The translations under genes were made by a program, and so were the position numbers. Shown piece by piece: positions 5,410-11,630 of a DNA stretch of 64,000 nt (position 1 is the stretch's first letter; each line of letters begins with the position of its first letter). The DNA comes from a virus, in the IMG/VR virus record IMGVR_UViG_3300002461_001209; one strand, given 5' to 3'. The notes below the pieces were generated by a model. That model was not told the DNA's origin and searched no databases. It was given only the letters and a program-made list of their open reading frames with translations.

Positions 5410-5415
5410 TTATGT

Positions 5416-5473
5416 TGGTCTCACAAGCAGGAATCGAACCTGTATCTAGTGCTTAGGAGGCACTCGTTCTACC
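5416..5473 (-). pseudogene. 5'-truncated tRNA-Arg(CCT)
   Basis: GGTAGAAC, AGTGC-CTCCTAA-GCACT, T arm and TTGTGAG-A-CCA are present; upstream sequence cannot supply a 5' acceptor strand. Confidence 0.75.
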
Positions 5474-7290
5474 GTAATTTAAAACGAAATCAAACTTTTT
5501 TCAAGTTTGGCTTAAAGCTTACAGCAAGCTCTATATTAAAACCCCAACATTAAAGTTCATAAACAGCTAATTTGCTAATATGAAGTATAATACTTATCAT
5601 ATATGATTTTCTATTCATGTTGTTTTTGTTTTAATAAAATTTTTTGTGATAATTTTTTATTTTTAATAATATTATCCCTCAACTCTTTCCAATAAATACC
5701 CAATTTCAAATTATTCCTTTCAGGTAAATTTGAAGTCTTAATGTATTTATTATTACTTGAGATTCTTTTTTCTATATGGTTTAAACTTATTGTTTTATCG
5801 TATTTTTCATTAGTCCTATTGTTAGTGGCTTTAATCATTATATGTTTTTTAAACAATCCTTTCCTTGCTATACATATTGCTGCACTGTGATGTATGCTTA
5901 TTCTATTTCTAGTAGAGTACTTTAAATAACCTATTAAGCTTGTGTATGCAGGATCAACTTCTATTATTTCTATAGAATTATCTATTGCTCTATTTTTTAT
6001 TAATTCTATTACTTTATTATAAGCAAAAGAATTCAATTGTATTTTTTTATTTTTAAAACTTTCACTATAGTTTAGCTGGATTTTCTTTAGATTAAAATCT
6101 AATTTTTCTATTACAATAGGCTTATTTAGATTGCTTCCTAATTTAATTAAATTTTTAATAGCTAAAGATATAGAATTAGTATTTTGATCTTTTGTGCCAT
6201 TTAAATTATAGTAAAAGTTATAAATATTTAATAAGTTACCTTTGTTATCTAAATTGGTAACTGCTAAATTATTTTGATTAATATCTACTCCTATACAGCC
6301 ATATTTTTTACTAGTAACAATGTTTTTTATCAAATTTTTTTCAAAGCTTATTGCAACAATATATTTATTCTTATGATTTTTTGAATTTTGTTTAATAATA
6401 TTGTATGTTAATGCCTGCCATAATTTTTTCTCTCTACCTTGATTATTTATGATTATTTGTTTTATTTTATCTGATTCATAATTTAAGTTAAATTGGATAT
6501 TAATATATTTGTCATCAATATTATTACATTTATGATTAATATTTATCCTCAGATTAAAAAGATTACCTTCAATATGAGTTATTTGAGCATTGCTGTTACC
6601 AGCAACTTCATCTTTACTACCTATTAATATAAAGTTTTTGTTTCTTTGGTAATTCCATTCTTTATACCAATCTTCATGATTTTTAAATTTAGTTTGAACA
6701 CTATTTGATTTTATTTTAAATTGCTCTCTAAAAAGATTATTGCTACCAAAACAAATTTTAATATTCCCCGTATTTCTAATTCTTTCTAAAATAATTAGTT
6801 TGTTTTTTAATTTATCAAGCCTTTTTTTATTAAATGCAATTTTAGATTGTAATTTAGCTTTTAATTTAGACTCTATACTGTTCAAATCCATTATTTTAAG
6901 TTTAGCCTTATATGTTTCATAAGTTTTTCTCTGCTTTAATATAGTTTTTTCTATAATATTTATTTTAAATTTGGTTTCATCCATATTTGTTTTATTTAGA
7001 GAAATTATTGATGAAACTTTACCATTTAATACTTTATAAATAGAATCAAAGTGTCTCCTACTAATTAAGTATTTGGATTGATATAATACACTAATATCTT
7101 TATACGGAATTTTTTTGATAAATAAATCAACATACATTCTATGCATTATGTTATTATAATGAATGGCAAAGCTATCTAGCTTAATTATTTGAGTTAATTC
7201 TAAATCTTTTGTTATCCCCGTTACAGTTTTCATAATTAATATATAATATTAATTATGAATTAAGTCAAATAATAGCTGAAGGCATATTTA
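5474..7290 (-). mobile_element. tnpB-only IS200/IS605- or IS607-like element; left boundary approximate
   Basis: tnpB-like gene, subterminal hairpins at 5491-5509 and about 5516-5530, abuts the truncated tRNA; no tnpA visible. Confidence 0.6.
5611..7233 (-). CDS. tnpB: TnpB-related RuvC-domain protein with coiled-coil insertion
   Basis: RuvC-I IGVDIN, RuvC-II IVIEKLDF, VDPAYTS, GSKDEVAGN, C-terminal SIHHSAAICIARK typical of long TnpB-related proteins. Confidence 0.8.
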   Translation of the reverse strand: MKTVTGITKDLELTQIIKLDSFAIHYNNIMHRMYVDLFIKKIPYKDISVLYQSKYLISRRHFDSIYKVLNGKVSSIISLNKTNMDETKFKINIIEKTILKQRKTYETYKAKLKIMDLNSIESKLKAKLQSKIAFNKKRLDKLKNKLIILERIRNTGNIKICFGSNNLFREQFKIKSNSVQTKFKNHEDWYKEWNYQRNKNFILIGSKDEVAGNSNAQITHIEGNLFNLRININHKCNNIDDKYINIQFNLNYESDKIKQIIINNQGREKKLWQALTYNIIKQNSKNHKNKYIVAISFEKNLIKNIVTSKKYGCIGVDINQNNLAVTNLDNKGNLLNIYNFYYNLNGTKDQNTNSISLAIKNLIKLGSNLNKPIVIEKLDFNLKKIQLNYSESFKNKKIQLNSFAYNKVIELIKNRAIDNSIEIIEVDPAYTSLIGYLKYSTRNRISIHHSAAICIARKGLFKKHIMIKATNNRTNEKYDKTISLNHIEKRISSNNKYIKTSNLPERNNLKLGIYWKELRDNIIKNKKLSQKILLKQKQHE

Positions 7291-7363
7291 GTTGATGAAA
7301 TTAATTGACTGTAATTTATAATTAATTATTATTAATTAAAATTTGATAAGAAAATACTATATT

Positions 7364-9067
7364 ATGAGCAATAAAAAAGACATTAAAGACTCTTTAACGG
7401 ATTTTATTATAAATAAAAGTTATGATGTTGCAGTTTTAAAAGGAACTTGGGGAATTGGTAAAACTTTTTTATGGAAAGAAATAGAAAGTGAAATTATAAA
7501 AAATAAAAAATTTCCCTCTAATACTTTTATGTACATATCACTTTTTGGAATGAATGATATAAATGAAGTAAAAAATAAATTGATTTTCTCGAAAAAATCT
7601 ACTGGTTGGCTCATGAATACATTTAAAGGTTTAGAAGATATAGATTTAGCAGGATTACCAGTTTCAGCACTTAAATATCCTGTAATATCACTATTTGAAT
7701 ATATGTTAAATAAAAAACTAAAAGAAAAGGTGATTATTTTTGATGATATTGAAAGAAGGAGCAACGAATTTAATATGTTATCTTTTTTAGGATTAATTAA
7801 TGAATTAAAAAGTAAAAATAATCAAATTGTTATCATATTAAACGAAGAAAAAATACTAATGAGTGATAATTTATCTAGTACAGATTGGCAAGTCTTTAAA
7901 GAAAAGATAATTGATATAGAGTTTAAATTAGATGTTAATGAAGAAGACTGTTTAAAGATAGTTAAAAATATTAATTTTAATGAATATAAATTAATAAGAC
8001 CAATTTATAAAAAAATTTTAGATAGAGCATTAACTAATTTAAATTGTAAAAATATTAGAGTTTTAAATTTAATTTTTAAAAGATTGTATAAAATTTTAAT
8101 GCTATTTCGTGAAATATTAAATAAGAAAAATAAAGATGATTTTGAAATTATTCTTCAGAACATTGCTAAGATGTGGTTTGTATATTTTGATAGTAATAAA
8201 GTAAATCGTGAAGAAATTATAAATTATGAAATTATTTTAAAATATATGGAAATTTATCCTAACATTAAAAGTAGAAATAATTATTTTTATAATAAAAGCA
8301 ATAATTTAGATCCATTGATGAAAGATTTAGAAGAAGATAAAATAGTCAATTTGTTATTAAATTTAGATTTTAATCTTAACATAGAGATTGTTAAAATAAT
8401 TTCTATGTATATTAAAACAGGATATTTAGATGAATTTACTTTAAAAAATGTTTTAAAAAATGAAGCTATAAATATAGAATTAGAATATAATAGAATGTGT
8501 ATATATAATTTCAATAATGATGTCGCAATTAATAAAAATATAACAGCAGAAATTATAATAAAAAAAGCTAAGTTTTTTTCAAATTTAGAGTGCTCTAATT
8601 ATGATGTTTTAGCAGATTTTTATATGACACTAAAAAAAATTGATAATTCTTCTAAAGAAATGATTTTTGATAGATTACTTCAATTAATGAGAGAACGTAA
8701 GTGGAAGCCAAATTTAAAAATATTAAAAGATTGCCAAAAGATTGAAGATGAGTGGAAAGAAATTCAGAAAATATTCCCTTCTGAATTAGATAAGATGTCA
8801 CTTTTAATTTCTTACTATAGTATGGGGTATATTGAATCTGTAGATAATATTTTAAATAAATTAACTGTAGAGTCTTTAAGGGATAAATTATTAAATCTAA
8901 ATAATGTAGATCTTCAAAACTTTTTAATTTTTATTAAAAGTATACAGGGTGCAGAACGATTAAAAAATTTTAATAACACATTTAAAAATTTATATGAAGA
9001 TACAACTAATAAAAGTGAAGATAAACTAAAAAATATATTTTTGTTAGCGGGGTATAATTCTTTCTAA
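7364..9067 (+). CDS. KAP-family P-loop NTPase
   Basis: Walker A GTWGIGKT, Walker B VIIFDDIER, FKEKIID motif; ATG 7364 preferred over TTG 7343. Confidence 0.75.
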   Translation: MSNKKDIKDSLTDFIINKSYDVAVLKGTWGIGKTFLWKEIESEIIKNKKFPSNTFMYISLFGMNDINEVKNKLIFSKKSTGWLMNTFKGLEDIDLAGLPVSALKYPVISLFEYMLNKKLKEKVIIFDDIERRSNEFNMLSFLGLINELKSKNNQIVIILNEEKILMSDNLSSTDWQVFKEKIIDIEFKLDVNEEDCLKIVKNINFNEYKLIRPIYKKILDRALTNLNCKNIRVLNLIFKRLYKILMLFREILNKKNKDDFEIILQNIAKMWFVYFDSNKVNREEIINYEIILKYMEIYPNIKSRNNYFYNKSNNLDPLMKDLEEDKIVNLLLNLDFNLNIEIVKIISMYIKTGYLDEFTLKNVLKNEAINIELEYNRMCIYNFNNDVAINKNITAEIIIKKAKFFSNLECSNYDVLADFYMTLKKIDNSSKEMIFDRLLQLMRERKWKPNLKILKDCQKIEDEWKEIQKIFPSELDKMSLLISYYSMGYIESVDNILNKLTVESLRDKLLNLNNVDLQNFLIFIKSIQGAERLKNFNNTFKNLYEDTTNKSEDKLKNIFLLAGYNSF

Positions 9068-9072
9068 TTAAG

Positions 9073-9098
9073 AAGAGCCTGCAATTTGCAGGCTCTTT
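9073..9098. terminator. bidirectional terminator
   Basis: AAGAGCCTGCA-ATT-TGCAGGCTCTT between convergent genes. Confidence 0.8.
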
Positions 9099-9102
9099 AG
9101 TT

Positions 9103-9327
9103 TCATGCTAATGTTTCTAATTTTGCATTTTGAATAGATTCAACATGTTTTCTAATCCATCTCATAAACAGCATGGCTTTATCCTGATTAGCAAATGCCC
9201 CATCACCTGTGTCTTCTATAGGAACAGGAAATTCAAACCCACATTCAGTGACATACCAAAGTTCTTTCTTTTGATATCTTAAAAATTTAACCTGCTTGTT
9301 GTTGCTAACCATCTCTTTAATGTTCAT
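9103..9327 (-). CDS. small conserved-looking phage-type hypothetical protein
   Basis: 74 aa, AAGGAG RBS, ELWYVTECGFEFPVPIEDTGDG. Confidence 0.7.
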   Translation of the reverse strand: MNIKEMVSNNKQVKFLRYQKKELWYVTECGFEFPVPIEDTGDGAFANQDKAMLFMRWIRKHVESIQNAKLETLA

Positions 9328-9328
9328 T

Positions 9329-9463
9329 TTATATCTCCTTTAAATTTGAACTAACACCTCTACTGCACCATGCTCCATATGTCACACATAAAAGGTTCCA
9401 TATGTTTGATTTAAACTTGTTTTGTTCGTTTTCTTCTTCCCATTTTTTTATAGATGTTCTCAT
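9329..9463 (-). CDS. 44 aa hypothetical ORF (MRTSIKKWEEENEQ...)
   Basis: Manual translation; lies between tRNA-Glu and the 74 aa gene. Confidence 0.35.
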   Translation of the reverse strand: MRTSIKKWEEENEQNKFKSNIWNLLCVTYGAWCSRGVSSNLKEI

Positions 9464-9492
9464 TTTATTCTCTTTTCTTTTTAGTTATAATT

Positions 9493-9568
9493 TGGCGTCC
9501 TCAGCGGGGATCGAACCCGCATTACAAGATTGAAAGTCTTGTGTCCTAACCGATTAGACGATGAGGAC
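9493..9568 (-). tRNA. trnE: tRNA-Glu(TTC)
   Basis: GTCCTCA acceptor, CAAGA-CTTTCAA-TCTTG, GGTTCGATCC, CCA. Confidence 0.92.
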
Positions 9569-9575
9569 CAAATTT

Positions 9576-9650
9576 TGGCACCACCTAAAGGATTCGAACC
9601 CTTATTCCCAGATTCGTAATCCAGTATATTATCCATTATATGAAGGTGGT
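9576..9650 (-). tRNA. trnR: tRNA-Arg(ACG)
   Basis: ACCACCT/AGGTGGT acceptor, CTGGA-TTACGAA-TCTGG, A20 in D loop, CCA. Confidence 0.9.
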
Positions 9651-9657
9651 ATAATTT

Positions 9658-9741
9658 TGGAGTCGCATGGGGGAATCGAACCCCAGCCCGAAAGCGTCAC
9701 CTTGAAAGGGTGATGACCGTTACCCGCAGTCAACATGCGAC
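9658..9741 (-). tRNA. non-canonical 8/4 tRNA with UUC anticodon and variable arm
   Basis: 8-bp acceptor GTCGCATG/CATGCGAC, 4-bp T stem GGGG/CCCC, TCACC-CTTTCAA-GGTGA, variable arm GCT-TTCG-GGC, U73, CCA; 84 nt. Confidence 0.8.
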
Positions 9742-9749
9742 ATTATGCT

Positions 9750-9825
9750 TGGCGTCCCCTAGCGGATTCGAACCGCTGTTCTTGCCGTGAAAGGGCAATG
9801 TCCTTGGCCTCTAGACGAAGGGGAC
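9750..9825 (-). tRNA. trnE: tRNA-Glu(TTC), canonical bacterial type
   Basis: GTCCCCTTCGTCTAGAGGCCAAGGAC..., TTGCC-CTTTCAC-GGCAA, CCA. Confidence 0.95.
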
Positions 9826-9843
9826 TTAATATTTACTTACCTG

Positions 9844-9928
9844 TGGTGGGTATGGTAGGAATCGAACCTACTCACCCGAAGGAACAGATTTACAGTCTGC
9901 CGCAACTCTCCAACTTTGCCGCATACCC
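9844..9928 (-). tRNA. trnY: tRNA-Tyr(GTA)
   Basis: GGGTATG/CATACCC acceptor, GCAGA-CTGTAAA-TCTGT, long variable arm, CCA. Confidence 0.93.
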
Positions 9929-9978
9929 ATTACAGGTAAGTAAACATCAACATAAACAAGCTTAAATTTTTAAAGAGC

Positions 9979-10006
9979 AAAAAGAAAAGGCACCTTACGG
10001 TGCCTT
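9979..10006 (-). terminator. intrinsic terminator upstream of the tRNA cluster (attenuator 3:4 hairpin)
   Basis: AAGGCACC-GTAA-GGTGCCTT followed by TTCTTTTT on the minus strand. Confidence 0.85.
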
Positions 10007-10028
10007 GATCATCTGCTTCTCTATCTTC

Positions 10029-10127
10029 TTAGATATTTGCCCATTGTGATAAACGAGCAGAAGCGAATGAGACACCTTTAGTGTTCATTTCCTCTCGTTC
10101 ATAATAATAAGCATTTGCGAAGTTCAT
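10029..10127 (-). CDS. putative attenuator leader peptide MNFANAYYYEREEMNTKGVSFASARLSQWANI
   Basis: AGGA RBS, 32 codons, TAT-TAT-TAT-GAA-CGA-GAG-GAA run, located between promoter and terminator. Confidence 0.75.
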   Translation of the reverse strand: MNFANAYYYEREEMNTKGVSFASARLSQWANI

Positions 10128-10160
10128 TTTATTTTCCTGTTTAAATTTTTCAATATCGTT

Positions 10161-10189
10161 ATTATCGTTCAAATATTTTCTTTTGTCAA
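10161..10189 (-). promoter_or_regulatory. sigma70-like promoter for the leader and tRNA cluster
   Basis: TTGACA-17 nt-GATAAT. Confidence 0.75.
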
Positions 10190-10202
10190 CACATTTTTTA
10201 AT

Positions 10203-10607
10203 TTATTTTTTAAATTTTCTTTTTGCCTGGTTTTGAGGTGTATTAAACTGTGTTACCATTTGTTGAATATCTTCTATCTTATACTCTTTATTAATATTGA
10301 AACTGACTGCAACACAAAACTCATCAGATATGAACTCATGTTCTTTGCAATCATCAAATGATATTACATCTCCTGGCTTTATGACTATTGTATCACCATC
10401 TATGAAAAATTGTCCAGTACCTTGAATCATCCATAAAACAGACATACCATTACCATCTATGTGAGGCTCTACATCTTTGAATACTAGAACAGTTGCATTA
10501 TTTTGGGAAGTAATGTGTGAAGCATATCCTTCATCTATTGTATCTTGATGTTCTTGTAAATCAAAGGAATAGCTGATTTGAGGTGTTTCTGTAAAAAGTA
10601 TTTTCAT
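10203..10607 (-). CDS. cupin-fold protein
   Basis: VEPHIDG...LWMIQGTGQFFIDGDTIVIKPGDVISFDDCKEH cupin motifs. Confidence 0.7.
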   Translation of the reverse strand: MKILFTETPQISYSFDLQEHQDTIDEGYASHITSQNNATVLVFKDVEPHIDGNGMSVLWMIQGTGQFFIDGDTIVIKPGDVISFDDCKEHEFISDEFCVAVSFNINKEYKIEDIQQMVTQFNTPQNQAKRKFKK

Positions 10608-10681
10608 AAGATTATTTTACTTTAAATCTGACTTTGATCAAGGTCTTGTGTTATAATGATGTTTTTTAATGAGGATAAAAT

Positions 10682-11023
10682 ATGGAAAGATATCTCGGTG
10701 AAGTTGAAGTGAAAATCGAAAATACTCCTTATGCAAATTTTAAGCCAAATGACTGGGCTATGCTCTTTATAGAAAGATATGCTCAAATTGATGGTGCACA
10801 CCATAAGCAGTGGGTTCTTGATCAGGTGGCTAGAATTCTAAAGGGTACAAAAGTCAATATTAAATTGGCAAAATGGGATGATGGTCAAGAAGAGTATCGT
10901 ATTGACCTAGATGAGCCATCAAAACAATATTTAGATTGGGTCGTTGAGATGAAAGGCAAATGGATTGAAAGTAAAGACTATACAGGTTGGGAATATAGTT
11001 ATGATGAGGGAATTGCACCGTAA
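10682..11023 (+). CDS. phage-type hypothetical protein
   Basis: YAQIDGAHHKQWVLDQVARIL; GAGG RBS; TGtTATAAT extended -10 upstream. Confidence 0.7.
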   Translation: MERYLGEVEVKIENTPYANFKPNDWAMLFIERYAQIDGAHHKQWVLDQVARILKGTKVNIKLAKWDDGQEEYRIDLDEPSKQYLDWVVEMKGKWIESKDYTGWEYSYDEGIAP

Positions 11024-11056
11024 ATACAAATAAAAATCCAGAATTGAAAGTGTAAT

Positions 11057-11085
11057 AAAAAAAAGAGCCTAAAGGCTCTTTTTTT
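11057..11085. terminator. bidirectional terminator
   Basis: A8-GAGCCT-AA-AGGCTC-T7 between convergent genes. Confidence 0.85.
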
Positions 11086-11087
11086 AT

Positions 11088-11630
11088 TTAAATCCCAGGT
11101 TTGGGTTTAGGTGTGTTTTTCTTTGCTGGCTTTAAGATGAAGTTAATCTCTTTACCACCATAGCTAATTTTTGTATCCAATTCACCATAGTTTTCTACAG
11201 TTTTAAGAACTTTTTCAATAAACTCATCGTTGATGGATTTCATCTGTGTTTCTCTGAAAGTTTTAAATCTGATGACGATTTTAACCTTATGTGATTCCTC
11301 AAGGAATTCATTGACTTTTTTCATCTTAAGATCAAAGTCATTGTCACCAATTGATGGACGCACCTGAATGGTTTTAATGTCGTGGCTTCTGTTTTTGAAA
11401 TCAAGTTTTTCTTGTTTCTTTTTCTCATGATAAAGCCAAGAATCAAACTTTACAATTTTGCATGTTGCATAGTCTTTGTTTTCACCAACTTGCATTAAAT
11501 CTAAATCTTGCTCATGTGCGAGCTTGATGGCGTCGTGAAATGACATTTCACCAACTTTTTCTCCCTCTTCTGAGAGTAAAAGAATTCTTTGCGCTCTGAT
11601 TTGATTGTTTACAAAATATTTTTTATCCAA
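11088..11630 (-). CDS. infC: translation initiation factor IF-3
   Basis: NNQIRAQRILLL, A..LA..QDLDL, CKI..F, IKTIQVRPSIGDNDFDLKMKKVNEFLEE.HKVKI; TTG start with GGAG RBS. Confidence 0.9.
   Translation of the reverse strand: MDKKYFVNNQIRAQRILLLSEEGEKVGEMSFHDAIKLAHEQDLDLMQVGENKDYATCKIVKFDSWLYHEKKKQEKLDFKNRSHDIKTIQVRPSIGDNDFDLKMKKVNEFLEESHKVKIVIRFKTFRETQMKSINDEFIEKVLKTVENYGELDTKISYGGKEINFILKPAKKNTPKPKPGI

What the first reader, a model, noticed from the sequence alone, without database searches (positions are those of the whole stretch)
9979..10189. Ribosome-mediated attenuator whose control codons match the tRNA cluster it gates
Seen on the minus strand, in order: TTGACA-17-GATAAT promoter; AGGA RBS; a 32-aa ORF containing TAT TAT TAT GAA CGA GAG GAA (YYYEREE); a GC stem plus U-tract terminator; then tRNAs Tyr, Glu, UUC-variant, Arg(ACG) and Glu, exactly the amino acids of the run. 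The leader has the four segments of a trp/his-type attenuator. Segment 1 (10081-10099, AACGAG..ATGA.ACAC) can pair with segment 2 (10052-10076, GGTGTC.TCAT..CTCGTT). Segment 2 can instead pair with segment 3 (9999-10020: GCTTCT/AGAAGC, TCAT/ATGA, GGTGTC/GGCACC), which sequesters the terminator 5' arm. Segments 3:4 form the terminator. Established: such attenuators control amino-acid biosynthesis and some synthetase operons. Inference: stalling on Tyr/Glu/Arg codons switches on replacement tRNA genes, so the locus would sense loss of charged tRNA, for example after host anticodon-nuclease attack or starvation. I do not know of a described attenuator of this type controlling tRNA genes.
Basis: partly seen in the sequence, partly recalled or inferred. 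Interest (0 to 1): 0.92.

Follow-up and report, generated by a model that had tools for sequence, protein, structure and literature searches.

The report
Leader-peptide attenuator gating phage tRNA genes
A tiny translated "test" gene rich in tyrosine, glutamate and arginine codons, wired to a switchable transcription stop signal, sits in front of a cluster of Tyr, Glu and Arg tRNA genes in an uncultured phage-like genome, so these tRNAs are probably made only when ribosomes run short of them; I found no published description of this kind of control for tRNA genes.

Summary
The minus strand carries a consensus promoter, a Shine-Dalgarno site and a 32-codon ORF with the run YYYEREE. A strong intrinsic terminator follows, then tRNAs Tyr, Glu, an odd UUC tRNA, Arg(ACG) and Glu.

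- **Orthologues.** I found seven distinct leaders in metagenomes. All keep the promoter, ribosome-binding site, YYYE[R/H]EE run, terminator and an internal GGUGUC that can pair with the terminator's 5' arm. All precede arrays made only of Tyr and Glu tRNAs (4-15 genes); Arg(ACG) is present in two.
- **Switch.** Folding with a ribosome footprint forms the antiterminator only while the ribosome sits at or before the last control codon (clean in 5 of 7).
- **Constraint.** Conservation is at nucleotide level, not peptide level. None of 200 synonymous recodings keeps the switch.
- **Tracking.** A cultured Ralstonia jumbo phage has an analogous NNNQRQNQ leader before Asn/Gln tRNAs.
- **Weak points.** There is no expression data and covariation is thin. 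The Arg codon does not track Arg tRNA. One broad composition test was negative. The replicon type is not certain.

This scan has reported the same design on other DNA (37 notes, at least 32 genomes). Six literature searches found no description. Verdict: a probable ribosome-mediated attenuator, a new variant of a known kind.

The parts
10161..10189 (-). Sigma-70-type promoter: TTGACA, 17 nt, GATAAT
   Evidence: It is the only zero-mismatch match in the window. TTGACA-17-nATAAT is kept in all orthologues.
10135..10138 (-). Shine-Dalgarno AGGA, 7 nt upstream of the ATG
   Evidence: An SD-like site is present in all 7 orthologues with a terminator, and absent in the decayed copy L150.
10029..10127 (-). 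Leader ORF, 32 codons plus stop
   Evidence: HMMER finds a peptide family with an invariant YYYE.EE..T.G core. Indels before the run are multiples of 3.
10089..10109 (-). Control codons TAT TAT TAT GAA CGA GAG GAA (YYYEREE)
   Evidence: Nucleotide-identical in 6 of 8 distinct copies: L148 differs at one synonymous base and L013 has CAT for CGA. Best scan-statistic score of 251 clusters.
10080..10100 (-). Segment 1 (anti-antiterminator), overlapping the last four control codons
   Evidence: Pairs with segment 2 in the MFE and in the consensus fold.
10052..10076 (-). Segment 2, beginning with GGTGTC, a near-copy of the terminator 3' arm (antiterminator strand)
   Evidence: GGTGTC (GGTGCT in L013) sits at a fixed distance from YYY in all orthologues.
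9999..10020 (-). Segment 3: pre-terminator stretch plus the terminator 5' arm GGCACC
   Evidence: Pairs with segment 2 when segment 1 is masked (-28.5 kcal/mol, P about 1.0).
9977..10006 (-). Intrinsic terminator (8-bp stem, GTAA loop, T-run); segments 3:4
   Evidence: -13.5 kcal/mol. Conserved with one compensatory and several wobble changes.
9966..9979 (-). Conserved box TGCTCTTTAAAAAT just after the terminator; role unknown
   Evidence: Present in 5 of 7 orthologues. Not enriched elsewhere in the window.
9844..9928 (-). tRNA-Tyr(GTA)
9750..9825 (-). tRNA-Glu(TTC)
9658..9741 (-). 84-nt long-variable-arm tRNA with TTC anticodon
   Evidence: Best Rfam match is tRNA-Sec at 34 bits, below threshold. 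A homologue with the same anticodon stem-loop is in L145.
9576..9650 (-). tRNA-Arg(ACG)
9493..9568 (-). tRNA-Glu(TTC), second canonical copy
9103..9463 (-). 44-aa ORF and 74-aa gene (phrog_20427) directly after the last tRNA, possibly co-transcribed
   Evidence: No terminator-like site was found between them and the array in the scan of 9000-11100.

Best explanation
This is a ribosome-mediated (leader-peptide) transcription attenuator that gates a tRNA gene array.

Transcription starts at the consensus promoter and the 32-codon leader is translated.

- **When Tyr-, Glu- and Arg-tRNAs are plentiful.** The ribosome passes the YYYEREE run. Segment 1 pairs with segment 2, the GGCACC arm stays free, the terminator forms and transcription stops before the tRNA genes.
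- **When decoding of these codons is slow.** The ribosome stalls on the run and covers segment 1. The GGUGUC of segment 2 then pairs with the terminator's 5' arm before the 3' arm is made, and the polymerase reads into the tRNA array.

The result is negative feedback on the supply of exactly these tRNAs.

**Shown here by computation:** the anatomy, its conservation, the alternative folds and where they switch.

**Inferred:** that the ORF is translated, that stalling happens, that read-through follows, and what depletes the tRNAs in nature.
For: 1. **Anatomy** is complete and at consensus quality.
2. **Conserved module.** Seven distinct orthologues keep the promoter, SD, ORF, YYYE[R/H]EE, GGUGYY at a fixed distance and the GGCACC/GGTGCC terminator. 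Their upstream genes differ (cupin, PTPS, an ATP_bind_3 protein and others), so the module moves as a unit.
3. **Downstream arrays.** Every orthologue with enough downstream sequence is followed by arrays of only Tyr(GTA) and Glu(TTC/CTC) tRNAs, 4 to 15 genes. Arg(ACG) is present in two.
4. **Switch in the window.** On the transcript made before the terminator's 3' arm, the probability of the GGUGUC:GGCACC pairing is 0.13 with no ribosome. It is 0.99-1.00 with the P-site on codons 2-13, and 0.00 on codons 15-23 and at the stop.
5. **Switch in orthologues.** The same switch, with the boundary at the last Glu codon, appears in L145, L148, L154 and L155. In L148 it is on only for codons 6-13, that is T-YYYEREE.
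6. **Consensus fold** is the 1:2 hairpin plus the terminator, with 3 compensatory pairs and no systematic breaks.
7. **Level of constraint.** Identity by codon position is flat in the leader (0.82/0.78/0.74), and the same codon is used in 0.87 of identical-residue pairs. The neighbouring 74-aa gene in the same genomes gives 0.76/0.86/0.56 and 0.58. The constraint is therefore on nucleotides or codons, not on a peptide.
8. **Recoding control.** 0 of 200 synonymous recodings keep the switch.
9. **Arg codon choice.** Both Arg codons of the leader (CGA, CGT) belong to the box read by tRNA-Arg(ACG), although AGA makes up 70% and CGA 4% of Arg codons in the window.
10. **Tracking elsewhere.**
    - L048: 10 Glu tRNAs and no Tyr. 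Its leader reads ..FEEREE.. and shares the 14-mer GAACGAGAGGAAAT.
    - Ralstonia phage RsoM2USA: NNNQRQNQ plus a terminator before Met, Ile, Asn, Asn, Gln and Lys tRNAs.
    - L020: six Lys tRNAs and a K-rich leader.
    - L132: a Cys tRNA and a CCIC leader.
    - The excess of such matches over label permutations gives p = 0.002.
11. **No bypass promoter.** No promoter-like site lies between the terminator and tRNA-Tyr.
Against: - No expression, 3'-end or ribosome data; my one read-mapping call failed on a filter.
- At equilibrium the full-length RNA keeps the 8-bp terminator core even with segment 1 masked; only the flanking helix changes. The antiterminator is a 6-bp helix next to a 4-nt bulge, so it must act kinetically.
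- In L013 and L151 the antiterminator is predicted even without a ribosome (0.83, 0.99).
- Covariation is thin because the core is nearly invariant. The test for co-evolution of the segment-2 extension with the pre-terminator stretch is marginal (permutation p = 0.085).
- The CGA codon persists in L145, L148, L154/L155 and L048, whose arrays lack Arg tRNA. It also takes part in 1:2 pairing, so its presence may be structural or kinetic.
- A whole-ORF composition test over 251 clusters was not significant (p = 0.10).
- The orthologues share descent, so their leader-to-array association is one evolutionary event maintained, not seven.
- L048, L020 and RsoM2USA place the ORF stop differently relative to the hairpins, so their logic may differ.
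Confidence: 0.7

Rival explanations
1. The promoter-to-terminator unit makes a small structured RNA (or a dual-function RNA) with its own role. The tRNAs are expressed by constitutive leak-through or from upstream transcripts. The Tyr/Glu codon run is incidental to RNA sequence constraints.
For: - Conservation is at the nucleotide level.
- The fold is very stable (z = -5.06).
- The terminator core survives in equilibrium folds.
- The cupin gene ends 14 nt before the -35 with no terminator, so upstream transcription may enter.
Against: - The frame stays open for 31-44 codons in every lineage, although the tails cannot be aligned.
- Indels before the run are multiples of 3.
- An SD at the correct spacing is conserved, and is lost only in the decayed copy L150.
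- The switch boundary coincides with the last control codon.
- Non-homologous leaders elsewhere match their own tRNAs.
- There is no Rfam match.
Confidence: 0.13
2. The ORF encodes a functional small peptide, for example a regulator or an arrest peptide, and the terminator simply ends its gene.
For: The first 26 or so residues are well conserved across the family.
Against: - There is no third-position relaxation. Synonymous sites are as conserved as the others, unlike the adjacent 74-aa gene.
- C-terminal length and sequence vary freely, from 31 to 44 residues.
- The conserved part coincides with RNA segments 1 and 2.
Confidence: 0.05
3. It is a translation-coupled attenuator with the opposite or a different logic. 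Efficient translation would keep the ribosome close to the polymerase and suppress termination, as in pyrBI, or the leader would sense amino-acid starvation rather than tRNA loss.
For: - In L048, L020 and RsoM2USA the stop codon lies just upstream of, or inside, the first hairpin. The ribosome at the stop, not the stalled one, is what changes the fold there.
- Charged-tRNA sensing cannot by itself tell amino-acid shortage from tRNA shortage.
Against: - In the window and 4 orthologues the predicted antiterminator forms on stalling, not on completion.
- Making tRNA does not relieve amino-acid starvation, so that signal would be useless to the element.
Confidence: 0.08
4. A chance juxtaposition of a small ORF, a terminator and tRNA genes.
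For: AT-rich DNA is full of small ORFs and promoter-like hexamers (10 promoter-like sites against 8.4 expected).
Against: - Conservation of the whole module in seven orthologues.
- Permutation rank 1 of 251.
- z = -5.06.
- 0 of 200 recodings behave alike.
Confidence: 0.02

Closest known systems
Leader-peptide transcription attenuators of amino-acid biosynthetic operons (trpL, hisL, pheL, leuL, thrL, ilvL of enterobacteria)
   Same: - A promoter-proximal short ORF with a run of control codons.
- Four RNA segments with mutually exclusive 1:2/3:4 and 2:3 pairings.
- An intrinsic terminator before the regulated genes.
- A stalled ribosome that masks segment 1.
- Multi-amino-acid runs, as in thrL and ilvL (the operon details are from my own knowledge).
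   Different: - The regulated genes are tRNA genes, not enzymes.
- The sensed species and the product are the same molecules, which gives direct feedback.
- There is no sequence or covariance-model similarity to the Rfam leader families.
- It lies in a phage-like genome.
pheST attenuator (pheM leader) of E. coli
   Same: A leader-peptide attenuator that controls a component of the translation apparatus (an aminoacyl-tRNA synthetase) in response to charged tRNA. This is from my own knowledge.
   Different: It controls a synthetase, not the tRNA. It uses a single amino acid (Phe). It is a cellular gene.
T-box riboswitches
   Same: They sense tRNA status through a terminator/antiterminator choice and control genes of aminoacylation.
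   Different: T-boxes bind uncharged tRNA directly, without translation. No T-box match was found (E up to 1), and there is no specifier-loop or T-box motif. Here a translated ORF with a conserved SD is the sensor.
Phage tRNA genes as counter-defence (T5 tRNA-Tyr against retron-Eco7 PtuAB; T1/T7 tRNA-Lys against PrrC), PMC11555353
   Same: Phage-encoded tRNA-Tyr supply compensates for host-triggered loss of tRNA-Tyr. This gives a rationale for Tyr tRNA arrays.
   Different: That paper describes strong constitutive promoters, not a sensing leader. No nuclease that targets Tyr and Glu together is identified here.
Codon-matched leaders before phage tRNA clusters noted earlier by this scan (AI notes, not publications)
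   Same: The same design: a leader ORF written in the codons of the downstream tRNAs, followed by a terminator.
   Different: Those notes concern other phage groups (Bacteroidota phages, Caulobacter giant phages). This family (YYYEREE before Tyr/Glu isodecoder arrays) was not among the notes returned for this sequence.

Membership tests
Leader-peptide (ribosome-mediated) transcription attenuators | Short ORF with a start codon and ribosome-binding site close to the promoter | tested here: met
   AGGA lies 7 nt before the ATG, about 27 nt after the predicted start. This is conserved in 7 orthologues.
Leader-peptide (ribosome-mediated) transcription attenuators | Cluster of codons for the sensed amino acid(s) | tested here: met
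   Seven consecutive Tyr, Glu and Arg codons. The run is conserved and ranks 1 of 251 in a permutation-calibrated scan.
Leader-peptide (ribosome-mediated) transcription attenuators | Intrinsic terminator between the leader and the regulated genes | tested here: met
   An 8-bp GC-rich stem plus a T-run, at -13.5 kcal/mol. Conserved in the orthologues.
Leader-peptide (ribosome-mediated) transcription attenuators | Mutually exclusive alternative structures (anti-antiterminator, antiterminator, terminator) | tested here: met
   Energies are 1:2 -19.0, the 2:3 domain -27.3 and 3:4 -13.5 kcal/mol. The switch is seen in footprint-masked folds. Caveat: at equilibrium the full-length RNA keeps the terminator core.
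Leader-peptide (ribosome-mediated) transcription attenuators | Control codons placed so that a stalled ribosome covers segment 1 but not segment 2 | tested here: met
   The antiterminator probability falls from about 1.0 to 0 between codons 13 and 15 in the window. The same boundary appears in L145, L148, L154 and L155.
Leader-peptide (ribosome-mediated) transcription attenuators | Read-through depends on leader translation and on charged-tRNA level | not testable with these tools
   This needs reporter, Term-seq or in vitro assays. The only read-mapping call failed.
Leader-peptide (ribosome-mediated) transcription attenuators | Regulated genes are amino-acid biosynthesis or synthetase genes | tested here: not met
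   The genes behind the terminator are five tRNA genes, followed by two small ORFs.
Rfam leader families (Trp_leader, His_leader, Leu_leader, Thr_leader and others) | Match to a curated covariance model | tested here: not met
   No match in 9000-10700 at E up to 1, apart from a sub-threshold Thr_leader hit on the other strand at 9000-9102.
T-box riboswitch | Match to the T-box model, with specifier loop and T-box motif | tested here: not met
   No T-box hit at E up to 1.

The most novel reading that the evidence does not exclude
The module is an on-demand counter-defence device. The leader detects the collapse of decoding at Tyr and Glu (and CGA) codons caused by a host tRNA-targeting immune nuclease. 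It answers by transcribing an array of highly diversified Tyr/Glu isodecoders. These are 55-75% identical to each other and have varied anticodon loops, so some should escape cleavage. Related leaders, re-written in other codons, would gate other tRNA sets in jumbo phages.
Probability: 0.3. Interest if true: 0.9.

Novelty: new variant of a known kind. Interest (0 to 1): 0.8.

Why it matters
Phage tRNA genes are usually discussed as codon-usage helpers or as constitutive replacements for tRNAs destroyed by host defences. How they are regulated is almost unknown.

A leader-peptide attenuator in front of tRNA genes would be a direct feedback sensor of tRNA supply, in which the ribosome reads out the availability of the very tRNAs that the switch controls.

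- It extends a textbook mechanism to a new class of target.
- It explains why dedicated promoters are followed at once by strong terminators in these tRNA regions.
- It predicts which tRNAs are limiting or attacked in the unknown host (here Tyr and Glu).
- It offers compact parts for synthetic biology that report the decoding capacity of chosen codons.
- The RsoM2USA example gives a cultured phage-host pair in which the idea can be tested.

Tried and rejected
- **Read mapping.** There is no natural-variant or RNA evidence from reads.
- **DNA searches in cultured phages.** The region matched only the tRNAs. Leader-peptide tblastn found nothing. The RsoM2USA leader has no orthologues there.
- **IMG/VR searches.** The exact leader found nothing. 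A degenerate leader pattern gave one chance hit inside a coding gene.
- **Upstream cupin gene.** It has no relatives at all.
- **IF3-anchored search.** It found relatives, but their contigs end before the leader or carry no tRNAs nearby. The record behind L005 could not be searched.
- **Whole genome.** None is held.
- **Broad composition test.** The whole-ORF test for codon matching over 251 clusters was not significant (p = 0.10).
- **Cross-pairing test.** The test for the segment-2 extension was marginal (p = 0.085).
- **Post-terminator box.** It is not a recurrent promoter-like motif in the window (16 matches against 14.8 expected).
- **74-aa protein.** The model has pLDDT 73.9 and no fold match (best E = 0.037, TM 0.38).
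- **T-box and known leader families** were rejected by Rfam.

Full report
**1. The observation.**

Read on the minus strand, window 10189-9493 contains the following:
- TTGACA, 17 nt, GATAAT (10189-10161).
- AGGA (10138-10135), 7 nt before the ATG at 10127.
- A 32-codon ORF ending at 10029, whose codons 7-13 are TAT TAT TAT GAA CGA GAG GAA.
- A hairpin AAGGCACC-GTAA-GGTGCCTT (10006-9987) with a T-run to 9977.
- Five tRNA genes: Tyr(GTA), Glu(TTC), an 84-nt long-arm tRNA with a TTC anticodon, Arg(ACG) and Glu(TTC).

Other points about the anatomy:
- The promoter is the only zero-mismatch match to TTGACA-N17-DATAAT in the 64 kb.
- No promoter-like site lies between the terminator and tRNA-Tyr.
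- The 186-nt leader folds at -50 kcal/mol against -33.05 +/- 3.35 for shuffles (z = -5.06).
- No Rfam family matches the leader.

**2. What the window is.**

No whole genome is held.

- Identical copies occur in activated-carbon and drinking-water metagenomes.
- Most proteins have no Pfam or PHROG match. Those that do include a bacterial-type IF3, ankyrin repeats, a KAP NTPase, a radical SAM enzyme and a DNA methylase.
- The 74-aa gene just after the array (9327-9103) is phrog_20427. It has 378 homologues.
- Many of these homologues lie on IMG/VR contigs of 200-435 kb, usually inside tRNA regions.
- It also occurs in cultured jumbo phages of Proteobacteria: RsoM2USA, XacN1, GAP32, CBB, BF and fHe-Yen9-04.

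The window is therefore most likely part of a jumbo phage of a proteobacterium. Some leader homologues sit on 2.2-Mb contigs, so a prophage or a cellular location for some family members cannot be excluded.

**3. Orthologues of the leader.**

- A locus found through the 74-aa gene (L013) has the same module, with YYYEHEE.
- A profile of the two peptides, searched against 1.84 billion proteins, found five more leader peptides. A word search found six further variants.
- All carry YYYE[R/H/Y]EE followed by ..T.G(V/A).
- Their DNA gives seven distinct full modules: window, L013, L145, L148, L151, L154 and L155.
- Each has TTGACA-17-nATAAT, an SD-like site and an ORF of 31-44 codons. Each has GGTGTC (GGTGCT in L013) exactly 33 nt after the first Tyr codon, and a GGC(A/G)CC...GGTGC(C/T) terminator with a T-run.
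- The upstream genes differ from locus to locus, so the module travels as a unit.
- One copy (L149/L150) lacks the SD, the terminator and nearby tRNAs. It has a roughly 430-bp segment bounded by 24-nt inverted repeats downstream, and looks like a decayed copy.

**4. What follows the leader.**

In every orthologue with enough sequence, the array consists only of Tyr(GTA) and Glu(TTC or CTC) tRNAs:
- 7 in L145 and in L146.
- 15 in L148.
- 11 in L154.
- 8 in L155.
- Tyr, Glu, Glu and Arg(ACG) in L151.
- Tyr, Glu, Glu and unusual tRNA-like genes in L013.

The copies within an array are only 55-75% identical, and their anticodon loops vary.

Tyr and Glu therefore track perfectly, although this is one inherited association. 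Arg does not track. CGA is kept in L145, L148 and L154/L155, which have no Arg tRNA in the array, and the one lineage without CGA (L013) also lacks it.

CGA is rare in this genome (4% of Arg codons; AGA is 70%). Both leader Arg codons fall in the box read by tRNA-Arg(ACG). CGA also pairs within helix 1:2. It may be a sensor codon, a deliberately slow codon or a structural base triplet, and I cannot decide between these.

**5. The switch.**

I folded each leader up to the point where the terminator's 3' arm emerges. A 27-nt ribosome footprint was forced single-stranded at each codon in turn.

In the window, the probability of the GGUGUC:GGCACC pairing is:
- 0.13 with no ribosome.
- 0.99-1.00 with the P-site on codons 2-13.
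- 0.41 on codon 14.
- 0.00 on codons 15-23 and at the stop codon.

In the orthologues:
- L145, L154 and L155 behave alike, with the boundary at the last Glu codon.
- In L148 the pairing is on only for codons 6-13.
- In L013 and L151 the antiterminator is also predicted without a ribosome (0.83 and 0.99). This fits the model only if helix 1:2, which is made first, is kinetically trapped.

Isolated energies in the window are 1:2 -19.0, the 2:3 domain -27.3 and 3:4 -13.5 kcal/mol.

On the full-length RNA with segment 1 masked, the MFE keeps the 8-bp terminator core and only rearranges its flanks. Antitermination must therefore rest on the order of folding, as is accepted for trp (from my own knowledge).

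**6. RNA or peptide?**

Across five genomes, the neighbouring 74-aa gene shows the usual coding pattern. Identity by codon position is 0.76/0.86/0.56, and the same codon is used in 0.58 of identical-residue pairs.

The leader shows 0.82/0.78/0.74 and 0.87. It is therefore constrained as nucleotides or as specific codons.

- The C-terminal tails vary freely in length and sequence.
- The frame stays open, and indels before the run are multiples of three.
- RNAalifold returns the 1:2 hairpin and the terminator as the consensus, with three compensatory pairs.
- None of 200 synonymous recodings of the window's ORF reproduces the behaviour 'off without ribosome, on when stalled, off at the stop'.
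- A test of whether each leader's segment-2 extension fits its own pre-terminator stretch better than those of other orthologues is only marginal: cognate -8.9 against -7.35 kcal/mol, p = 0.085.

**7. Is the design general?**

I examined 251 non-redundant tRNA clusters from loci that carry the 74-aa gene.

- A whole-ORF composition test shows no significant excess of cognate codons in upstream small ORFs (p = 0.10).
- A local-run statistic does show an excess: 6 clusters score above 4 against 1.4 expected (p = 0.002), and the window ranks first.

The other high scorers, all but L116 with a strict terminator, are:
- L048: ten Glu tRNAs; the leader reads ..FEEREE.. and shares GAACGAGAGGAAAT with the window.
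- L020: six Lys tRNAs and a K-rich leader.
- L132: a Cys tRNA and a CCIC leader.
- L081: His, Glu, Lys, Lys and Glu tRNAs, and an EKHEK leader.
- L116: Thr tRNAs.

The cultured Ralstonia phage RsoM2USA has, before Met, Ile, Asn, Asn, Gln and Lys tRNAs, a 37-codon ORF. It begins M-F-N-A-F and then has AAC AAC AAT CAG CGA CAA AAT CAA, followed by a terminator (L157 8479-8592). This is the same layout as YYYEREE, with a central CGA and first-base changes Y to N and E to Q. In that leader, and in L048 and L020, the ORF stop lies next to or inside the first hairpin, so the details of the switch may differ.

**8. Comparison and novelty.**

In anatomy and predicted behaviour this works like a trp- or his-type attenuator. 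It meets every structural criterion of that class that I could test. It fails only the criterion on the kind of genes controlled, and it matches no curated leader model. It is not a T-box.

Six full-text searches found no description of a leader-peptide attenuator controlling tRNA genes. The nearest literature is on phage tRNAs as counter-defence, for example T5 tRNA-Tyr against retron-Eco7 PtuAB (PMC11555353).

This scan has itself reported the same design repeatedly on other DNA: 37 notes in at least 32 genomes. Those are unchecked AI notes and I did not count them as evidence.

I rate this as a new variant of a known kind, with confidence 0.7 in the mechanism.

Noticed in passing
window 9103-9327 (-): The 74-aa protein (phrog_20427) has 378 homologues. 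It is almost always embedded among tRNA genes in huge-phage contigs and in cultured jumbo phages (RsoM2USA, XacN1, GAP32, CBB, BF). Its function is unknown. The AlphaFold model has pLDDT 73.9 and no PDB fold match.
   Followed up: partly
L148 2778-4575; L154 2718-3815; L145 2732-3374: Arrays of 7-15 tRNA genes restricted to Tyr(GTA) and Glu(TTC/CTC). Copies are only 55-75% identical and have varied anticodon loops (for example CTTTCAC, TTTTCGC, ACTTCAC). This suggests diversified isodecoders rather than simple dosage.
   Followed up: partly
window 9658-9741 (-); L145 2823-2908: A long-variable-arm tRNA with a Glu anticodon TTC. It scores best against the tRNA-Sec model (34 bits, below threshold). 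A homologue with the identical anticodon stem-loop is present in L145, and a 75-nt version in L013.
   Followed up: partly
window 5410-9100: The relative L012 has intact tRNA-Arg(CCT) and Arg(CCG) about 130 nt after the 74-aa gene. In the window these are 3.6 kb away and Arg(CCT) lacks its 5' part. The KAP NTPase gene (7343-9067) and the 540-aa ORF (5611-7233) therefore look like insertions.
   Followed up: partly
window 9966-9979 (-): A box TGCTCTTTAAAAAT directly after the terminator is conserved in 5 of 7 orthologues but is not enriched elsewhere in the window. It may be a pre-tRNA processing or pause element.
   Followed up: partly
L150 180-790: A leader copy that has no Shine-Dalgarno site, no terminator and no tRNAs within 800 nt. 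It is followed by a roughly 430-bp segment bounded by 24-nt inverted repeats, which resembles a MITE insertion.
   Followed up: partly
L157 8479-8660 (Ralstonia phage RsoM2USA, MG752970.1 about 87180-87361): An unannotated 37-codon ORF with the run NNNQRQNQ, plus an intrinsic terminator, lies before unannotated tRNAs Met, Ile, Asn, Asn, Gln and Lys in a cultured jumbo phage. This is a testable analogue.
   Followed up: partly
L048 1900-2960: Ten consecutive tRNA-Glu(TTC) genes are preceded by a 17-codon ORF containing EEREE and by a terminator. An upstream near-copy of the terminator's 3' arm is also present. The contig is binned as a Chloroflexota MAG but is probably viral.
   Followed up: partly
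window 11088-11630 (-): A bacterial-type translation initiation factor IF3 gene sits in a phage-like context. It is 59% identical to one on a 191-kb metagenome contig that also carries a YYYEREE leader about 7 kb away, and only about 31% identical to other IF3s found.
   Followed up: partly
proteins P0140, P0142: Near-identical leader peptides are recorded on contigs of 2.22-2.23 Mb, too large for known phages. These may be a prophage, a cellular genome or a chimeric assembly. They could not be fetched because the look-ups were exhausted.
   Followed up: no
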